A stretch of DNA of 64,000 bases from Cenococcum geophilum. Lineage: Eukaryota. Position numbers and translations under genes: made by a program. Below are positions 43,164 to 54,200 of the stretch, piece by piece. The DNA lies in assembly GCA_050273025.1 (NCBI GenBank), contig CP158635.1, positions 20,708,001 through 20,772,000 of the forward strand, in the 5' to 3' direction. The notes below the pieces were generated by a model that saw nothing but the letters and a program-made list of their open reading frames with translations, was not told where the DNA came from and made no database searches. Position 1 is the stretch's first letter. Each line of letters opens with the position of its first letter.

Positions 43164-44645
43164 TATCGGTATCACCCAAGTGTACTTGATTGGCCTATTA
43201 ACTGATGAATTGATTCTTGTCTAATAGGTACAGAAAGCAGAGGATCGTAAGGATCGCAGTGCCTAAGTAGGGGGCTGATTAGTCACCATAAGGATGACTA
43301 ATCAAAGACACGTAACCACATAACCTCTGTCCATATATTCCGACACTGGCAGTTCTTTCTTTATGCTTGTAGTGCTGCAGGAAGGCAGCAAGGCAGCAAG
43401 GTAGCAAGGTGTCGGTTTAGCTGGAGGTAGAAGCAGTAAAGGTCTGTTCGGGTGGTAGTACGGTATCAGCGGCGGTAGTGATAGTGGTCAAGCATAGAGC
43501 TTGTCTATCAGTCGGTCGGTTGATCGTAGGCGTATAGGCACGATCATTCGGTCGGTAGATCGCAGGCGTATCGGCGCGATTAGTATCGTAATAGCAGGCA
43601 TAGCGGCGCTATCAGTTTGTCGATGGTATGTGGCAGTACGGTGCTAGCGTCAGGTGGATTGCAGGCGTAATGGCACAATCGTTTAGTCGGTAGACCTCTA
43701 TCCTAACGAAGCTTGATCCTTTGGACGACGACATCCCCAAACGTGCTTATAGAGGGTAGTATTCGAGGATAGGGAGCGCGCTGGCGTTATAGGCGCGCTG
43801 TTGGACGTGGTATTCGACGTGGCAGATCTGCAAGGAAGCAGACGGTGTCGGGGTTATAGGGGGTGCTGCTAATGCTGCTGGGTTGTGGGATGCTGCTGGC
43901 GCTGCTAGATGATGGTTTGCTGCTGACGCTGCTGGATAATAGTTTGCTGCTGACGCTGCTGGGTTGCTGTAACGCTGGTGTACTGCACGAGGCTGTTGGG
44001 TATTGGTTTGTATGCTATGACGCGTACTGGGTAATGGTTTGCTGCTGAGTTGCGTAGCTGCGCTGGGGTACTGCGTAAAGCAGTTGGGTAGTTGGATGTT
44101 GGGTGCTGTAAAAGCTGGTGTGCTGTGTACGGCTAGAGCGCTGCCGTAGTACTGCTGGGGTAGCTGCTGAGGTAGCTGCTGAGGTACTGCCCGAGGGCTG
44201 TTGGACGTTTGGTGCTGTTGAGCTGGGGGTACGGCACTCAGTGAAGAGGTCGTACTAGGGGTTGATTTGCGTGCTGTAGAATGTCTTGTGCGTTGCGTAT
44301 TTGATAAATATTCTAAGCTGGCTGGGGTTGGATGCTGCCGGAGCTGCTGGGTGCTGGTTTTGCTGCTAGGTACTGGATTGCTGCTTGCGATCGAACAAAG
44401 CTGCTGGGGCGGCAGTGAACCTTATTGCTCTATAGCCAACCGGTGAGGTTAACTATTGATTAATGTCAGTATCACCTAAGTGCACTTAATTGGCCTATTA
44501 ACTAATAAATTAATTTTTGTCTAATAGGTACAGAAAGCAGAGGATTATAAGGATCGCAGTGCCTAAGTAGGGGGCTGATTAGTCACTATAAGGATGACTA
44601 ATTAAAGACACGTAACCACATAACCTCTGTCTATATATTCCGACA
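43164..44645 (-). mobile_element. Non-autonomous LTR element (1482 bp), GalEa-like termini
   Basis: 182-bp LTRs 43164-43345 and 44464-44645; TSD ATATT; GC-rich interior with Q/P/S-rich low-complexity minus-strand reading and no pol. Confidence 0.9.
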
Positions 44646-48118: not shown

Positions 48119-49685
48119 CTAGTAGGTAAACGGATAACTCCTTAGGTCTATATTATATTAAATATTATAATAAATATATAAGACACCTTATAAAAGATTC
48201 TAACGGTAAAATATAGTAATATTGCCTACTTTTAATAGATAATTATTCGAGCCACTTTACCTGGCAATTTGTTAAGTATGTGCTTGCGTATAAGATTATC
48301 CTAGTAACCCTACTACCTTATTTGACTTATAAGCTTCAACCACTAAATGTAAGTTGTTTTGGGCCACTTTCTCACTACTATAGGAAATAAGAAGATGGCC
48401 TCTGTCGATATGGCCACTTAAGCGTCAATAAGGAATATTTTTTAAAGCTCTACCTAAAGGCGCGCATACAGGCATTTACCTACGATACGATCTGCAGCGC
48501 CTGGAAAGCTATAGGCCTTCTACCTTATAATCCTACTGCTGTCTTAAAGACTTTTACCTATATAGAGCCAGTGTGGCTAACAGTTAGCGTCTAGCGAGCT
48601 TCGCTGACTGACTGTACTAATTAAATCGCTCGCTGTCTACTTGCTGGGTATATCTATACGCTAACTATACCGCTGTTAGCGCGCTTTCTAAATTAAGTAA
48701 TTTATATAGATTTAATAGAGTCATAGAGCCAAATCTTAGATTTTTAACAGCACCTCTATATGTACAAATATTGACGTTACCCGATCTTAAATCTACTCTA
48801 ATTAACCTTATATAGTGTTCGGACATTGTTAGATTTAGTCGCCACGCCACGCAGGCTTTAAAGAAGTTAGTAGTGACGTTAATAGTAAGAATTTGGGTTA
48901 GGTAGTTAAGTGGGCTCTATAAGCTTTATTTTAAAGTTAGATTCTGTTAGGTAGAGAGCTTTAGTAAACATACCTCTCTTATTTAGTGTTTCTACTACTA
49001 TATCTGGCCTATAGCTAGTAAGATTAGTATTTAAATTTATTAACCAGGGCGTAATTAGGGCTCCGTTAGAGTTAATACAGTTAATTAAGCTGCTTAGTAG
49101 AGGGCCTTTAGGTAGCCACTATTTCTAATATTAGTCTGCTTTAACTGTATCGGCTAAAAGCCTATTGCGCTTATTAATAACGATCTTCTTAGCTTAACTA
49201 AAAGCTCGCTTATATATAGAGCTTATTGCTAGTATAGAGAATAGATCTAAAGCGATCTTGGCGAGAGTTAGATAAAGGATTTAACTAGTGGTAAGCTACT
49301 AGTTAAGAAGATCTGGAATGACGTTGCTTACTTTACTACTATTTTTATTACGGATCTTAACTAGCTTAAGGCCTACCTTATAGTAGTAATTAAGTTTAGC
49401 AGTAAACTTAATTTACTTTTATAAGCGTAAAGTGTGTTGCATTTTCCGTAGTAATAAAAAGGTTGATATTAGTAGGCGAACGCGTTTATAGACGCGACAG
49501 GGAATTTAGAGAAAACTATACTATTTTATATAAATATCCCAGGGGTTTCCCGCCCGGATTTTAGCCGAAGATCTTAGATCCTTAATCTTTACTAAAAGCT
49601 TTAAAATACTACTAAATTAATCCTTTCTTACCACCTATGCAGCGAGCTGTTAGCTCGCTGCAGTCTTACTACTAATTAACTATTA

Positions 49686-50329
49686 TTATCTTAGGTGCCT
49701 TAGACCCTCGTTAAGGAATTACCTCTTACTTTATAAATATTATACAATTCTATTATAAAAATTTGCTAAGGAAGGTGCCGTATGTAAGCAATCTAGCCAT
49801 TTAGAGTATATGTAAGGTAATTCCTCTTTAAGGGTTTAAGAGAAAATAGGCGCGTTTTATACCCTTATACCTTATAGTTTCCTTATACTTTTAAGATAGA
49901 ACTTCCCTATTATAACTTATTTTTCTCTAAGATTAGGTAAAAAAGAAGTTATAGTAGTGGGATATAATTAAGGTTCTAATATAGCTAGTTAGATTAGCCT
50001 AGTTTAAAAAAAATAAACTTTAAGGCTATATATTAACCCCTAATATATAGGCTAGCTAATTAAATTAATTAGAATATATAAGAAGAAGAGGTTGTAATTT
50101 AAGTGCATTAATAACTATAGCTATAGCTGCTAAATTGGCCCTATTATAGCTGCTTAAAAATAATATATGTTAAAAAAGTGGGCTAGCTTATAGTAAGCAC
50201 ACGCCTATAATCTCTTAAACGCTATATAGAGGATTTTATTAGGTTATATAGAGCTAAGAATTAATAGGAAGTTATATAAAGGGGTAGGCCTACTAATTAT
50301 CTATAAAGCGGCTAAGGCACCTAAGATAA
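49686..50329. mobile_element. MITE family M, copy 1 (644 bp)
   Basis: TIR TTATCTTAGGTGCCTTAG; 8-bp TSD AACTATTA/GACTATTA; homologous to 52251-52946 in inverted orientation. Confidence 0.85.
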
Positions 50330-50354
50330 GACTATTATAACTATATACGCTAAC

Positions 50355-51905
50355 TTTTTTTTTATTTTTTATTTTTATATCCGTTGTATTATACTACGTA
50401 TAATACTGCGCATGCAGCCTCTAGGCTATGGCGCTATAGTTCTATATACATGAATCCTTCCTAGGCAGCTTAACATGTACTAGTAGCTAAGTGGACACTC
50501 TGGCCCGTTTTAAATACTAGGGGGAGCTCCTAGCCTATTGGTGTTTTGTCCTGATATCTTGCTTACTATGGTCTAGTTTATGCCAAGAAAATCGCACTAA
50601 GGAAATCCTGGCTCTTTTATCTATTTCTGCCGTATTCTGCCATTCCTAGAGTAGAAAAAGCGCTCTAAAAGAAAGATTTTTATTAAATAGTTTTGCACTT
50701 AAGAATAAGAGGCGTTACAATAGCTTGCTAGCTTGGAAGCAGCTACCAATTACCTAAAGCGACTTTTTATCCTGTACCCTATCTCTTCTCCTTGCTAAAG
50801 AAATGGTTAGGGAATTAGTAATTAATAGGTACTCTCCCCAAAAATAACCTACTAATGGTATTTTATAAGGGCGAACCTCGTTACGTAAACCCACTCCCAT
50901 AGGAAAATTTTCACGAAGTTGTCTTGTATAGGGTATAAACACCAATTCGCCTATACACCTTAGATTTAACGTGCTAAAGTAACACGGGCCGGCCCCTTCC
51001 CCTCCCCCACTATAGCCACCCCTATCTGCGCATCTGCGGTACGCCTATAGTGCGGTATTGTATGGTATGTTGTGGCGGTGGTGGCGGTTGTGGTAGAGGT
51101 CGTCTGCAGCGCGATGGCCGTAGACAGGTTGTGGAGAGGTCGTCTGCAGCGTGATGGCTGTAGACAGGTTGTGGAGGTCGTCTGCAGCGCGATGGCTGTA
51201 GATGGTAGAGGTCGTCTGCAGCCTGATGGCTGTAGACAGGTTGCGAAGGTCGTCTGCAGCTTAATGGCTGTAGACAGGTTGCGAAGGTCGACTGCAGCCT
51301 GATGGCTGTAGACAGGTTGCGAAGGTCGACTACAGCCCGATGGCTGTAGACAGGTTGCGAAGGTCGTCTGCAGCCCGATGGCTGTAGACAGGTTGTGGTA
51401 GAGGTCGTCTGCAGCTTGATGGCTGTAGACAGGTTGTGGTAGAGGTCGTCTGCCGCTTGATGGCTGTAGACAGGTTGTGGTAGAGGTCGTCTGCAGCTTG
51501 ATGGCTGTAGACAGGTTGTGGTAGAGGTCGTCTGCCGCTTGATGGCTGTAGACAGGTTGTGGTAGAGGTCGTCTGCCGCTTGATGGCTGTAGACAGGTTG
51601 TGGTAGAGGTCGTCTGCAGCTTAATGGCTGTAGACAGGTTGCGAAGGTCGTCTGCAGCTTGACGGCTGTAGACAGGTTGCGGAGGTCGTCTGCAGCTTGA
51701 TGGCTGTAGACAGGTTGCGGAGGTCGTCTGCAGCTTGATGGCTGTAGACAGGTTGTGGTGGAGGTCGTCTGCAGCGTAATGGCTGTAGACTGGTTGTAGT
51801 AGAGGTTGTGATGTGTCTGGTATTTGGCGTCTGGTGACGTGTCCGTAGGGGCTATATAGCCAGGGGCGTCCTAGCGACGACGACGGAGGAGCGAAGGGGG
51901 AGACC
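50355..51905 (-). mobile_element. Non-autonomous poly(A) retroposon (SINE-like, 1551 bp) with internal hairpin array
   Basis: TSD TATACGCTAAC(T) at 50344-50354 and 51906-51916; interrupted poly(T) 50355-50376 = minus-strand poly(A); no RT or endonuclease motifs seen. Confidence 0.8.
51087..51809. repeat. Tandem array, about 18 units of mostly 38 or 41 bp, each with a hairpin
   Basis: Unit GGTC-GTCTGCAGC-ttgatg-GCTGTAGAC-AGGTTG(TGGTAGA/CGAA). Confidence 0.95.
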
Positions 51906-52250
51906 TATACGCTAACTAGCTGCTAGCGATACTGCCTATTAGCTATACTATATAGAGCCTTTTAAAAGCTAGGATATAGGGGAATTAAATATACTTACTA
52001 CTTTACGTACTCTAAAGACGCTAGGAACTATAAAGGAAATTAAATCTTTATATAGTTGGATCGACGAATTAGCAACCGCGCGACTTAACGGCCTACTTAA
52101 GACTCTAACTTAATGACGTCTTAAAAAGCCATTTAAAGCTTTAATAGGCTTCGCGACCGACTCCTATATCTAAAGGGAAGAAAATAAGAAATATTAAAGC
52201 CCTTGTATTAATAAGAAGTTAAGTAGGCAACTCCTTAGTAAGGGTAGAGT

Positions 52251-52946
52251 TTATCTTAGGTGTCTTAGCCGCTTTGTAAATAATTAGTAGGCCCGCCCCT
52301 TTATATAACTTTTTACTAATTCTTAGCTCTACGTAACTTAATAAATCCTTTATAAAGCGTTTAAGAGCTTATAGGCGCGTGTTTAGTATAACTTATATAC
52401 CATTTCTAACGCATATTAAATTTAAATAGCTATATTAGGGTTAATCCAGCAGCTATTACTATAGTTTGCGATGCATTTATATTACAATCTCTCCTACTAA
52501 TATATTCTAATTAATTAAACTAGCTAACTAACGTATTAGGGGGCGAAGTATAGCCTTAAAGTTTAAAGACGTGTTTTTAAACCTATATTTACTTAACTAA
52601 CTATATTAGAACCTTAATTACATTTTATTACTATAACTTATTTTTCCCTAAGATTAGGTAAGCCACCCTTTATTATAGCTAAAAAGTAGCTTACCTAATC
52701 TTAGGGGAAAATAAGTTATAGTAGGGAAGTTTTATTTTAAAAATATAAGAAAACTATAAGGTATAAGGGTGCAAAAAGTAACTATTTCCCCTTAGACCCT
52801 TAGAGAGGAGTTGCCTTACACATGCTCTAATTAGCTAGATCGCTTGCGCACTGTACCTTCCTTAGTAGGATTTTATAACAGAATTGCATAATATTTATAA
52901 AGTGAGAGACGAATTCCTTAACGAGGGTCTAGGGCACCTAAGATAA
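52251..52946. mobile_element. MITE family M, copy 2 (696 bp)
   Basis: TIR TTATCTTAGGTG..CACCTAAGATAA; exact TSD GGTAGAGT (52243-52250, 52947-52954); the pogo frame GRV|L rejoins across it. Confidence 0.87.
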
Positions 52947-53711
52947 GGTAGAGTCCTTAGTTAGGAAGATGTTGATTGATTAAAATCTAAAGATCTATAG
53001 AAGCAGGAGGCCTCCGCATAAAAGTTAACTTAAAGGGAGTATAAGGAAGGAACGACTTTACTAGAGCTTAACGTTGCTACGTTAAGCAGAGCCGTTCTAA
53101 ACCTTAGTAAATATAATTAGAATTAGGCCCACCTCTCTTATATATTTGGGTGTGATCCACAGCCTGTAAATAAGTAGATTAATAGGTTGTTGATCTGGAA
53201 AGGGACGTCGTAGGAATATAGTAGCCGCCTATGCAGTTAGTCGGCATGTGGGATTACATTACCACTAAAAGGTAGATAAATTAATTCAAGTAATATTACG
53301 ATCGAAATAGTAATATAAAAGCTTTAATTTAGCCTACTTAGAATCTATATAAGCTCGTTGTTGATTTTATTATAAATTGATCAAATATCACCTATATATG
53401 GCTCGCTAGGTAGGGTAGCTCGCTTCCTAGTTAGCTATAGTGCTACGTTATAAGCTCCTTAGGCTTGTAGCCCTTTCCCTCTCTTTATCGGTTGGTCTCT
53501 ATATAAGGGTATTGCCCTACCCTACTCTTTGCCATATTGTCCTCTTTTATTAACTCTCCTATAACTTATACTCGGCTTACCTACTCCCTACTATATACCC
53601 TAGCAATATACCTTATAGATATATTATTATAAAATATAAATTAGATTTTTAATAGAATCTTCGTGGATTTTAGACTAAAACTTAACTAACTACCCATATC
53701 TATCACATATC

Positions 53712-53731: not shown

Positions 53732-53949
53732 CAATTTAGCTTAGTTACGACTCGAGTAAATATAAGGTTAGAGCTACCCCTACTAATAACGCGCCTGAAC
53801 CCCGCACGAGGTCGCGCAGTAACCGCCCCCAAGTACCTTCGCACGCGATTTTAGGCGAAGGGGTACATAATATATATTAGATCAGTACTTCTAAACGGTC
53901 GCGTAATGTTACTCTAAATTTACAACACTTAAACGCGCTCTACTCCTAC

Positions 53950-54188
53950 ATTAAGGCGTCTTAGTTACTGTAATACAGTCCTATATTAAGACGCCTTGGT
54001 TACTAAAGTATAGTCCTATATTAAGGTGTCTCGGTTACTATAGTATAGTCTTATATTAAGGAGTCTTAGTTACTACAGTAGTCCTATATTAAGGCGTCTT
54101 AATTACTACAGTGCAGTCTTATATTAAGGTGTCTCGGTTACTATAATAGTCCTATATTAAGGTATTTTAGTTACTATAGTAGTCCTAT
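53950..54188. repeat. Tandem repeat, 7 units of 33-35 bp
   Basis: Consensus ATTAAGGCGTCTTAGTTACTACAGT(GC)AGTCCTAT with transition-type variants. Confidence 0.92.
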
Positions 54189-54200
54189 AATAAGATAGTA

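What the first reader, a model, noticed from the sequence alone, without database searches (positions are those of the whole stretch)
50355..51905. Non-coding poly(A) retroposon carrying about 18 tandem hairpins
Seen: a 1551-bp insert in hAT-3 with an 11-12-bp TSD and a minus-strand poly(A) tail, the marks of LINE-mediated target-primed reverse transcription, yet no RT or endonuclease remnants. On the minus strand it has a ~95-nt GC-rich head, the hairpin array, a G-rich tract (~50990-51025) and a tail loosely resembling the LINE-1 3' end (TGTA.ATAGAA..GCGCC..AGGC.GC..AACGG.). Inference: an unusual SINE-like family or retrocopied structured RNA whose hairpins could be multivalent protein-binding sites or small-RNA precursors.
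Basis: partly seen in the sequence, partly recalled or inferred. Interest (0 to 1): 0.8.

Follow-up and report, generated by a model that had tools for sequence, protein, structure and literature searches.

The report
Fungal SVA-like repeat retroposon family
This is one copy of a young, non-coding jumping RNA in a fungus that borrows a LINE's enzymes through a shared tail and is laid out like the primate SVA elements, with repeats at its start and a variable array of small hairpins in its middle.

Summary
In detail: a 1551-bp minus-strand insert with an 11-12-bp TSD, a 22-nt poly(A) and exactly 18 hairpin units. It belongs to a dispersed family in a RIP-mutated fungal genome (207 tail-motif and 183 head-motif matches, controls 0). 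Layout: 1-16 pyrimidine-rich 5' monomers, a short head, 4-28 hairpin units, a ~500-nt body, then ~115 nt that are 97% identical to the 3' end of an intact APE-RT-RNase H LINE (941 matches). That LINE is not the one in the window. Head, array and body do not align to it, there is no tRNA/5S/7SL head, and T-runs argue against Pol III. Relatives are transcribed, mainly from the element's own strand. The layout parallels primate SVA/LAVA without homology. The hairpins are short, carry an A-C mismatch and covary weakly, so small-RNA precursors are unlikely; the body shows better covariation. Side finding: a 1.75-kb RNA starting with an HDV-like ribozyme fold is fused to the 5' end of truncated copies of this element and of three LINE families, like Magnaporthe WEIRD/MINE chimeras. 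Verdict: new variant of LINE-dependent retroposon; hairpin function unshown.

The parts
50344..50354 (.). Target-site duplication, left copy (11 bp; 12 with the adjoining T)
50355..50376 (-). Poly(A) tail, 22 nt with two interrupting T; same junction in all 30 first loci
50377..50492 (-). ~115-nt 3' tail shared with the partner LINE (92-98% identity); three predicted stem-loops; inferred RT recognition site
50493..50985 (-). Non-repetitive body of unknown origin; T4+ runs; predicted helices with compensatory changes, e.g. 50821-50856 and about 50698-50759
50986..51022 (-). G-rich tract
51023..51095 (-). C/A-rich linker with unpaired GCAGA-type motifs; length varies 62-264 nt between subfamilies
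51096..51806 (-). VNTR of 18 units (34-41 nt), each a 9-bp stem with an A-C mismatch at pair 5 (A-U in one unit), a 6-nt loop and a C/A-rich spacer
51807..51875 (-). Head, with a TATA-like palindrome at 51850-51861; head motif found 183 times in the genome
51876..51904 (-). One 26-nt pyrimidine-rich 5' monomer (1-16 tandem copies in other members); inferred initiator or internal promoter
51905..51905 (-). Extra G that matches neither monomer nor TSD (possible copy of the cap)
51906..51916 (.). Target-site duplication, right copy
48569..51950 (.). Host: hAT-like non-autonomous DNA element (CAG-starting TIR, 8-bp TSD); context, not part of the retroposon
49686..50334 (.). ~650-bp MITE-like insert beside the target site; a second family member lies inverted at 52251-52947; context only

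Best explanation
A non-autonomous, non-coding retroposon family of the 'stringent' SINE/LINE type with a composite, SVA-like layout. Shown: it is dispersed, young, poly(A)-ended, TSD-flanked, RIP-marked, transcribed in relatives, and ends in the same ~115 nt as a protein-coding LINE of the same genome. Inferred: RNA polymerase II starts at G residues in the 5' monomers (internal promoter); the LINE's ORF2 protein recognises the shared 3' stem-loops and inserts a copy by target-primed reverse transcription; template switching shuffles head, array, body and tail between subfamilies and renews the tail from LINE RNA; the monomer and hairpin arrays change length by slippage. The hairpin array most likely acts as a variable-length, sequence-tolerant domain that tunes RNA level or RNP loading, as the SVA VNTR tunes mobility, not as a Dicer substrate; this last step is the least certain (about 0.4 for a functional role, against neutral expansion).
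For: Family: 40 of 40 scored matches are long dispersed copies; element-specific motifs 207 (tail) and 183 (head), reversed-pattern controls 0. TSDs: 22 of the first 30 loci have a distinct TSD adjoining the head; 5 of the 7 cassette-fused ones have one further out; an automatic search gave 9-17-bp TSDs for 51 of 71 distinct copies, a few probably spurious. Partner: 9 of 16 fetched LINE loci are one family, 6.6 kb with TSDs, ORF2 1362 aa open with APE, RT and RNase H, 941 3'-end matches; both of its tail variants also occur in the retroposon (21 and 3 of 71 copies; 43 have their own variant, 4 unclassified). Not Pol III: 5-6 T4+ runs in each of 5 subfamily consensuses, no Rfam match to body or head at E<=10. 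Pol II-like starts: 18 of 25 TSD-bounded type-A copies begin at G of three adjacent GTC triplets out of 26 phases, 3 of 25 have an extra G; L023 carries 42 nt of L038's upstream flank including its TSD, a 5' transduction. Young: transversion divergence 0.0001 and 0.0005 in the two largest clusters, C>T at CpA 11.3% against 0.5-3.4% elsewhere. Expression: 1115 raw reads of run X21, first mates about 18-20:1 on + in the deepest bins (RNA on the element's strand if the library is of the usual type); contigs of three more runs cover head to tail while the multi-copy flanks have depth 0-4. Body structure: 17 pairs with two-sided changes against 9.9 +/- 1.7 in shuffles (0/500) and 2-4 in slid controls, two of them transversions that RIP cannot make.
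Against: Mobilisation by this LINE, the polymerase and the start sites are inferred, not assayed. Only 16 of 150 scored endonuclease loci were fetched, so head and body could come from an unsampled LINE. X21 reads are all under 99% identical, do not cover the head and run into a different leader at 51802 (175 reads); over the last ~110 nt the strand bias reverses or vanishes. Contig runs cannot show strand or level. The body alone does not fold better than shuffles (z = -0.54), and the structure tested was predicted from the same 20-row alignment, with each compensatory change probably one or two events. The array folds better on the opposite strand (-343 against -201 kcal/mol). TSD microhomology blurs 5' starts by 1-3 nt.
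Confidence: 0.8

Rival explanations
1. An internally deleted LINE (SIDE/NARTc type): head, monomers and array are the 5' UTR, and the body the 3' UTR, of an older or unsampled LINE that later took the present tail.
For: Tandem 5' monomers are a LINE trait (rodent L1; recalled). An 8-nt GC motif lies 30-45 nt from the 5' end in both the partner LINE and most heads (noticed after the fact, and absent from the window's own sub-lineage). A 48-nt, 71% match between body and LINE 3' UTR appears at E 0.9.
Against: The 540-nt body scores within shuffle range against three partner copies and similarly against six other LINE loci, at DNA and protein level. Head and array have no match to the partner beyond low-complexity pyrimidine runs.
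Confidence: 0.13
2. Processed copies of a single functional host non-coding RNA that once acquired a LINE tail.
For: The body has compensatory changes and the family is present in RNA runs from many studies.
Against: Many subfamilies with their own diagnostic changes each have several copies (15 tail clusters among 64 copies); a dispersed copy served as source of another (L038 to L023); no Rfam match. Selection for transposition explains the structure equally well.
Confidence: 0.04
3. For the hairpins only: they are a neutral by-product of tandem slippage of one small inverted repeat, or the conserved thing is the GCAGAC sequence (RNA or DNA site) and not the fold.
For: An A-C mismatch of RIP type (TG to TA) is fixed in most long units and was amplified with them; unit number ranges 4-28; at pair 7 of short units the excess of Watson-Crick pairs is small (CG 303, TA 106, TG 104, CA 109) and the counts are not independent; unpaired GCAGA motifs recur downstream of the array in all 33 copies listed.
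Against: Two unit types with different loop and stem length (9+6+9 and 7+4+7) both keep a stem, with five standard pair types at pair 7; every TSD-bounded copy that keeps its head also keeps units.
Confidence: 0.45
4. For the hairpins only: precursors of small RNAs.
For: Units are predicted to fold (-8.7 kcal/mol, z -3.9 for the commonest) and the RNA is present.
Against: Stems of 6-9 bp with a mismatch are far shorter than the ~20-bp duplex that Dicer needs (established knowledge); spacers are C/A-rich and cannot extend them; two other unit variants are no better than shuffles (z -1.9, -1.7). Small-RNA reads were not examined.
Confidence: 0.07

Closest known systems
SVA and LAVA 'VNTR composite' retrotransposons of hominoids (PMC7353768, passages read)
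   Same: Non-coding, LINE-mobilised, 1-2.4 kb; 5' pyrimidine-rich tandem repeats, a central VNTR of similar unit size (34-41 nt here, 36-50 bp there), a 3' unique domain, poly(A), subfamilies that differ in VNTR make-up, forms with a foreign 5' part.
   Different: No sequence relation, no Alu-like or HERV-K part; 26-30-nt monomers instead of hexamers; VNTR units are hairpins; the 3' end is shared with the partner LINE, which is of the APE-RT-RNase H (Tad/I-group) type and not L1; fungal host.
Mg-SINE/MGL and SINE2-1_BG/Tad1-24_BG fungal SINE-LINE pairs (PMC3747384, passages; PMC2104539, parts 1-2 of 5)
   Same: Non-autonomous element that shares its 3' end with a fungal LINE.
   Different: Those are listed with tRNA-derived heads; here there is no tRNA match, several T-runs, and large tandem arrays.
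Eg-R1 / BG_Non-LTR elements of Blumeria (PMC6022598, passages)
   Same: Fungal SINE-like, no A/B boxes, internal poly(T), Pol II transcription proposed.
   Different: Eg-R1 insertions lack a genomic poly(A) and use an AAUAAA signal; no VNTR or LINE partner is described in the passages read.
EhSINE1 of Entamoeba (PMC2996970, abstract and section 14)
   Same: No tRNA head, ~70 nt shared with the partner LINE at the 3' end only, variable number of internal 26-27-nt repeats.
   Different: Shorter, one to four repeats, no hairpin array or 5' monomer array described in the parts read.
Sadhu elements of Arabidopsis (PMC2848041, passages)
   Same: Non-coding, ~0.9 kb, poly(A), 7-16-bp TSD, 5' polypyrimidine patch, transcription from near the element's start.
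   Different: No LINE-shared tail or known partner, no VNTR.
WEIRD/MINE chimeras of Magnaporthe (PMC2104539, parts 1-2 of 5), for the fused 1.75-kb cassette
   Same: Full-length non-coding RNA joined in the same orientation to 5'-truncated LINE or SINE copies, whole chimera flanked by a TSD.
   Different: Here 563 3'-end motif matches against 33 chimeras; partners from three LINE families plus this retroposon; the 5' end is an HDV-like ribozyme fold, and the word 'ribozyme' does not occur in that paper (search listing).

Membership tests
LINE-mobilised non-autonomous non-LTR retroposon | 3' poly(A) at a fixed junction | tested here: met
   30 of 30 first loci
LINE-mobilised non-autonomous non-LTR retroposon | Variable-length TSDs, different at each dispersed copy | tested here: met
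   22 of 30 at the head; 51 of 71 by automatic search, 9-17 bp
LINE-mobilised non-autonomous non-LTR retroposon | No RT or endonuclease of its own | tested here: met
LINE-mobilised non-autonomous non-LTR retroposon | Partner LINE with the same 3' end (stringent type) | tested here: met
   ~115 nt, 92-98% identity, 9 LINE loci
LINE-mobilised non-autonomous non-LTR retroposon | Mobilisation in trans by that LINE | not testable with these tools
   needs a retrotransposition assay
Classical SINE (Pol III) | 5' head derived from tRNA, 5S or 7SL RNA with A/B boxes | tested here: not met
   no Rfam match at E<=10; an A/B-box-like pair inside the body was not supported
Classical SINE (Pol III) | No internal T4+ terminators | tested here: not met
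   5-6 runs in each of 5 consensuses
SVA/LAVA VNTR composite | 5' pyrimidine-rich tandem repeats of variable number | tested here: met
   26-nt monomers, 1-16 copies; analogous, not homologous
SVA/LAVA VNTR composite | Central VNTR of 36-50-bp units varying between copies and subfamilies | tested here: met
   34-41-nt units, 4-28 per copy, two unit types
SVA/LAVA VNTR composite | Alu-like domain and SINE-R or L1-Alu 3' domain | tested here: not met
   no SRP/7SL match in Rfam; the 3' end comes from a fungal LINE
SVA/LAVA VNTR composite | 5' repeats and VNTR set mobility | not testable with these tools
   shown for SVA in PMC7353768; needs an assay here
Internally deleted LINE (SIDE, NARTc, RIME) | Shares 5' end and overall sequence with the autonomous LINE | tested here: not met
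   only 16 LINE loci compared
WEIRD/MINE-type chimera (fused cassette) | Full-length 5' RNA with fixed ends joined to 3' partners truncated at many places, one TSD around both | tested here: met
   30 loci: 9 this retroposon, 8 partner LINE, 8 two other LINE families, 2 cassette (one probably mis-parsed), 3 unassigned; TSDs
WEIRD/MINE-type chimera (fused cassette) | No solo copies; single cellular source gene | tested here: inconclusive
   source locus not found; a 298-nt part is 65% like the region upstream of ORF2 in LINE locus L101
HDV-like ribozyme (fused cassette) | Nested double pseudoknot P1/P1.1/P2/P3/P4, G-U first pair, catalytic C in J4/2, cut site at the element's 5' end | tested here: met
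   descriptor 15 hits in 2.48 Mb, all at cassette 5' ends, 0 in shuffles; 27 cassette starts at or next to G1
HDV-like ribozyme (fused cassette) | Rfam family threshold | tested here: not met
   RF02682 29.5 bits, E 0.0005, gathering 44; RF00094 26.1 bits, gathering 50; nothing in a 60-kb search
HDV-like ribozyme (fused cassette) | Self-cleavage | not testable with these tools
   needs an in vitro assay

The most novel reading that the evidence does not exclude
Fungi evolved, independently of apes, a VNTR-composite retroposon in which 5' monomers supply a renewable Pol II promoter with no CpA/TpG targets for RIP (type-A monomer) and a hairpin array plus a folded body act as a multivalent scaffold that captures LINE proteins; and the same genome's WEIRD-like passenger RNA owes its fixed 5' end to a self-cleaving HDV-like ribozyme, which would explain what such RNAs are and why they end up on truncated retro-inserts.
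Probability: 0.3. Interest if true: 0.85.

Novelty: new variant of a known kind. Interest (0 to 1): 0.64.

Why it matters
VNTR composite retroposons are described as specific to hominoid primates (PMC7353768). A fungal family with the same order of parts but unrelated sequence would show that the layout is a repeated solution for parasitising LINEs, and it comes with an apparently intact partner LINE and a short shared tail, so the role of 5' repeats, VNTR and tail can be tested in a simple organism. It also shows a non-coding retroposon spreading under RIP. The ribozyme-headed cassette gives a testable handle on the open question of what WEIRD-type RNAs are and how such chimeras form.

Tried and rejected
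tRNA-derived segment in the body: an A/B-box-like pair was seen by eye, but Rfam gave nothing at E<=10 and ARAGORN at a lowered threshold gave only noise. Hammerhead or other ribozyme in the head: no Rfam match, no fold better than shuffles (z -0.08). Body as decayed ORF2 end or 3' UTR of the partner LINE: scores within shuffles. Tail as the 3' end of the window's own LINE: not above chance. Different LINE tails on different subfamilies: of 16 head-bearing loci chosen because they were not in the listed tail matches, those with a complete 3' end that stayed in view had the same tail; three of the first four (L343, L345, L346) were interrupted or decayed, and part of the output was cut. Exact empty site: 11 host copies align only to 48569-49430, so their right ends were not compared; one diverged copy gave a near-empty site. 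Protein product: only repeat-derived frames; a non-AUG peptide as in Eg-R1 is not excluded. Earlier scan findings were not available.

Full report
Observation. The insert is as described: 50355-51905, minus strand, 11-12-bp TSD, 22-nt poly(A), and 18 tandem units of period 38/41. The whole window has the dinucleotide signature of repeat-induced point mutation (TpA/ApT 1.3-2.2), and G000 is 178 Mb in 7 contigs, so the host is most likely a filamentous ascomycete (inference). The insert sits about 35 bp from the right end of a hAT-like element (CAG-starting TIR, 8-bp TSD; no transposase was looked for), next to a MITE-like insert, all inside a larger element. One diverged host copy has the target motif once and no insert (L152/L164).

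It is a family. All 40 scored matches to the full insert are long dispersed copies. Motifs specific to its tail and head occur 207 and 183 times, with 0 for the reversed patterns; these are lower bounds because RIP erodes motifs. All 30 first loci end in poly(A) at the same place; 22 have their own TSD at the head, 7 carry a fused 5' cassette (TSDs found for 5 with longer flanks) and 1 lies in an AT microsatellite. Across 71 distinct copies an automatic search gave TSDs for 51. The two largest clusters (19 and 16 copies) differ almost only by transitions, mostly C to T at CpA (11.3% against 0.5-3.4%), and some copies have 0-1 differences from their consensus: recent spread followed by RIP. Of 121 metagenome loci from a two-unit pattern, 56 are family members and add subfamilies.

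Anatomy. 5' to 3': tandem pyrimidine-rich monomers (26 nt, 1-16 copies in type A; about 30 nt, 1-4 in type B), a ~70-nt head with a TATA-like palindrome, a VNTR of 4-28 hairpin units, a C/A-rich linker, a G-rich tract, a ~500-nt body, a ~115-nt tail and poly(A). Type A units have a 9-bp stem and 6-nt loop, type B a 7-bp stem and 4-nt loop; both share the outer six pairs and can occur in one array. Tail blocks are mosaic between subfamilies, which points to template switching or conversion (inference).

Partner LINE. Of 16 fetched loci around LINE endonuclease hits (150 scored), 9 belong to one family of 6.6 kb with TSDs and an ORF2 of up to 1362 open codons with APE, RT and RNase H domains, the layout of Tad/I-group fungal LINEs (established knowledge; no tree was built). 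Its last ~115 nt plus poly(A) match the retroposon at 92-98%, and its 3' motif occurs 941 times. Both LINE tail variants recur in the retroposon. Nothing else aligns: the body scores within shuffles against the partner and similarly against six other LINE loci. The LINE in the window is a different family with a different end.

Transcription. Five consensus bodies each have 5-6 T4+ runs and no Rfam match, so Pol III is unlikely. Of 25 TSD-bounded type-A copies 18 begin at a G in three adjacent GTC triplets and 3 have an extra G, as expected for capped Pol II starts in any monomer, although microhomology with the target could add to the bias. L023 starts 42 nt upstream of L038's insertion site and includes its TSD, so a dispersed copy was transcribed from its flank and re-inserted. 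Twenty of 24 listed runs hold the body or part of it, 17 of them half of its words or more. I laid 4. Raw reads of X21 (about 12% of the run read, 1115 laid, none at 99% identity, so a relative) are strongly one-sided over body and array, which fits sense RNA in a usual stranded library; they do not cover the head, and the bias reverses near the poly(A). Contigs of X1, X2 and X10 cover head to tail while the multi-copy flanks have almost no depth; contigs do not show strand or level.

Hairpins and structure. The units fold locally, but on the expressed strand most long units carry an A-C mismatch of RIP type that was amplified with the array, the opposite strand folds better, and covariation at the one variable pair is weak. 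Short imperfect stems are poor Dicer substrates (established knowledge). A tolerant scaffold or promoter-modulating domain is plausible by analogy with SVA, where deleting VNTR or 5' repeats cuts mobility (PMC7353768, passages), but neutral expansion is about as likely. The body, in a 20-copy alignment, has 17 pairs with two-sided changes (shuffles 9.9 +/- 1.7, 0/500; slid controls 2-4), including G-C/C-G and A-U/U-A swaps that RIP cannot produce. The structure was predicted from that alignment and the copies are related, and a single body does not beat shuffles, so this is moderate support.

The fused cassette. Some copies are preceded by a 1.75-kb sequence with fixed ends (386 first-look candidates for its 5' end, 563 matches to a 3'-end motif with 2 in the control). 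In 30 loci it is joined to this retroposon (9), the partner LINE (8), two other LINE families (8, three at one shared junction), itself (2, one probably mis-parsed) or unassigned sequence (3), at many truncation points. This is the pattern of Magnaporthe WEIRD/MINE chimeras (PMC2104539, parts 1-2 of 5 read). Its first ~85 nt form an HDV-like ribozyme by descriptor (15 hits, 0 in shuffles), the 5' ends of 27 copies fall at or next to the predicted cut site, and Rfam's HDV models match below their thresholds. HDV-like ribozymes are known at the 5' ends of several LINEs and SINEs (PMC6765202, passages). The window copy has no cassette.

Comparison and novelty. It works like a stringent-type SINE but fails the Pol III definition; it is laid out like SVA/LAVA but is not a member; Eg-R1, EhSINE1 and Sadhu each share part of the picture (PMC6022598, PMC2848041, PMC3747384: passages; PMC2996970: abstract and section 14). 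Nine searches of the open library (terms on fungal SINEs, tandem repeats and hairpins, Tad LINEs, HDV-like ribozymes, WEIRD/MINE, SVA, and a guessed host genus) showed, in their listings and the passages read, no description of such an element in fungi or of a ribozyme in WEIRD. Subscription papers, Repbase, Dfam and supplements were not seen, and automated repeat libraries may already hold the sequence without describing it. Verdict: real, a new variant of LINE-dependent retroposon with an SVA-like layout; mechanism of movement well supported by sequence, role of the hairpins open. Interest 0.64.

Noticed in passing
L034:1500-3235 (minus strand); also L031-L037, L105-L134: 1.75-kb non-coding cassette starting with an HDV-like ribozyme fold, fused 5' of truncated copies of this retroposon and of three LINE families; about 560 3'-end motif matches; WEIRD/MINE-like. 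Source locus not found. Its 3' end reads ...CCTG and is usually followed by C, which resembles the ribozyme's own first letters; coincidence or head-to-tail origin was not tested.
   Followed up: partly
L089, L093, L095, L098 (G000 C7, C5, C4, C5): Abundant 6.6-kb LINE with an open 1362-aa ORF2 in a genome otherwise heavily RIP-mutated; copies up to 99.5% identical; L092 has a long 9-nt tandem expansion inside ORF1.
   Followed up: partly
L023 and L038: 5' transduction: L023 carries 42 nt of L038's upstream flank; L038 now has 16 monomers and L023 one, so the monomer array changed length after or during the event.
   Followed up: partly
L112, L115, L117 (and probably L124): Cassette joined to another LINE family at the same junction in several loci, suggesting a chimera that itself spread.
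   Followed up: no
window 50355-50470: In run X21 the strand bias reverses or vanishes over the LINE-shared tail, possibly antisense RNA from LINE 3' ends.
   Followed up: no
window 49686-50334 and 52251-52947: Two members (76% alike, inverted) of a ~650-700-bp MITE-like family; the second has a long internal hairpin at 52616-52736.
   Followed up: partly
window 51876-51904 and array units: The monomer's GTCGTCT is the reverse complement of AGACGAC in each unit, so head and array could pair or share an origin; the type-A monomer has no CpA or TpG.
   Followed up: no
window 43700-44450: Region with little RIP signature and a 224-aa stop-free frame on the minus strand among short tandem repeats.
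   Followed up: no
window 53944-54194: Another tandem array (period about 35, 7 copies) and, at 37196-37268/38343-38415, a perfect 73-bp inverted repeat pair.
   Followed up: no
L244, L266, L252 (metagenome loci): Older-looking subfamilies have few hairpin units and a long C/A-rich linker with 8-nt tandem repeats and unpaired GCAGAC motifs.
   Followed up: partly
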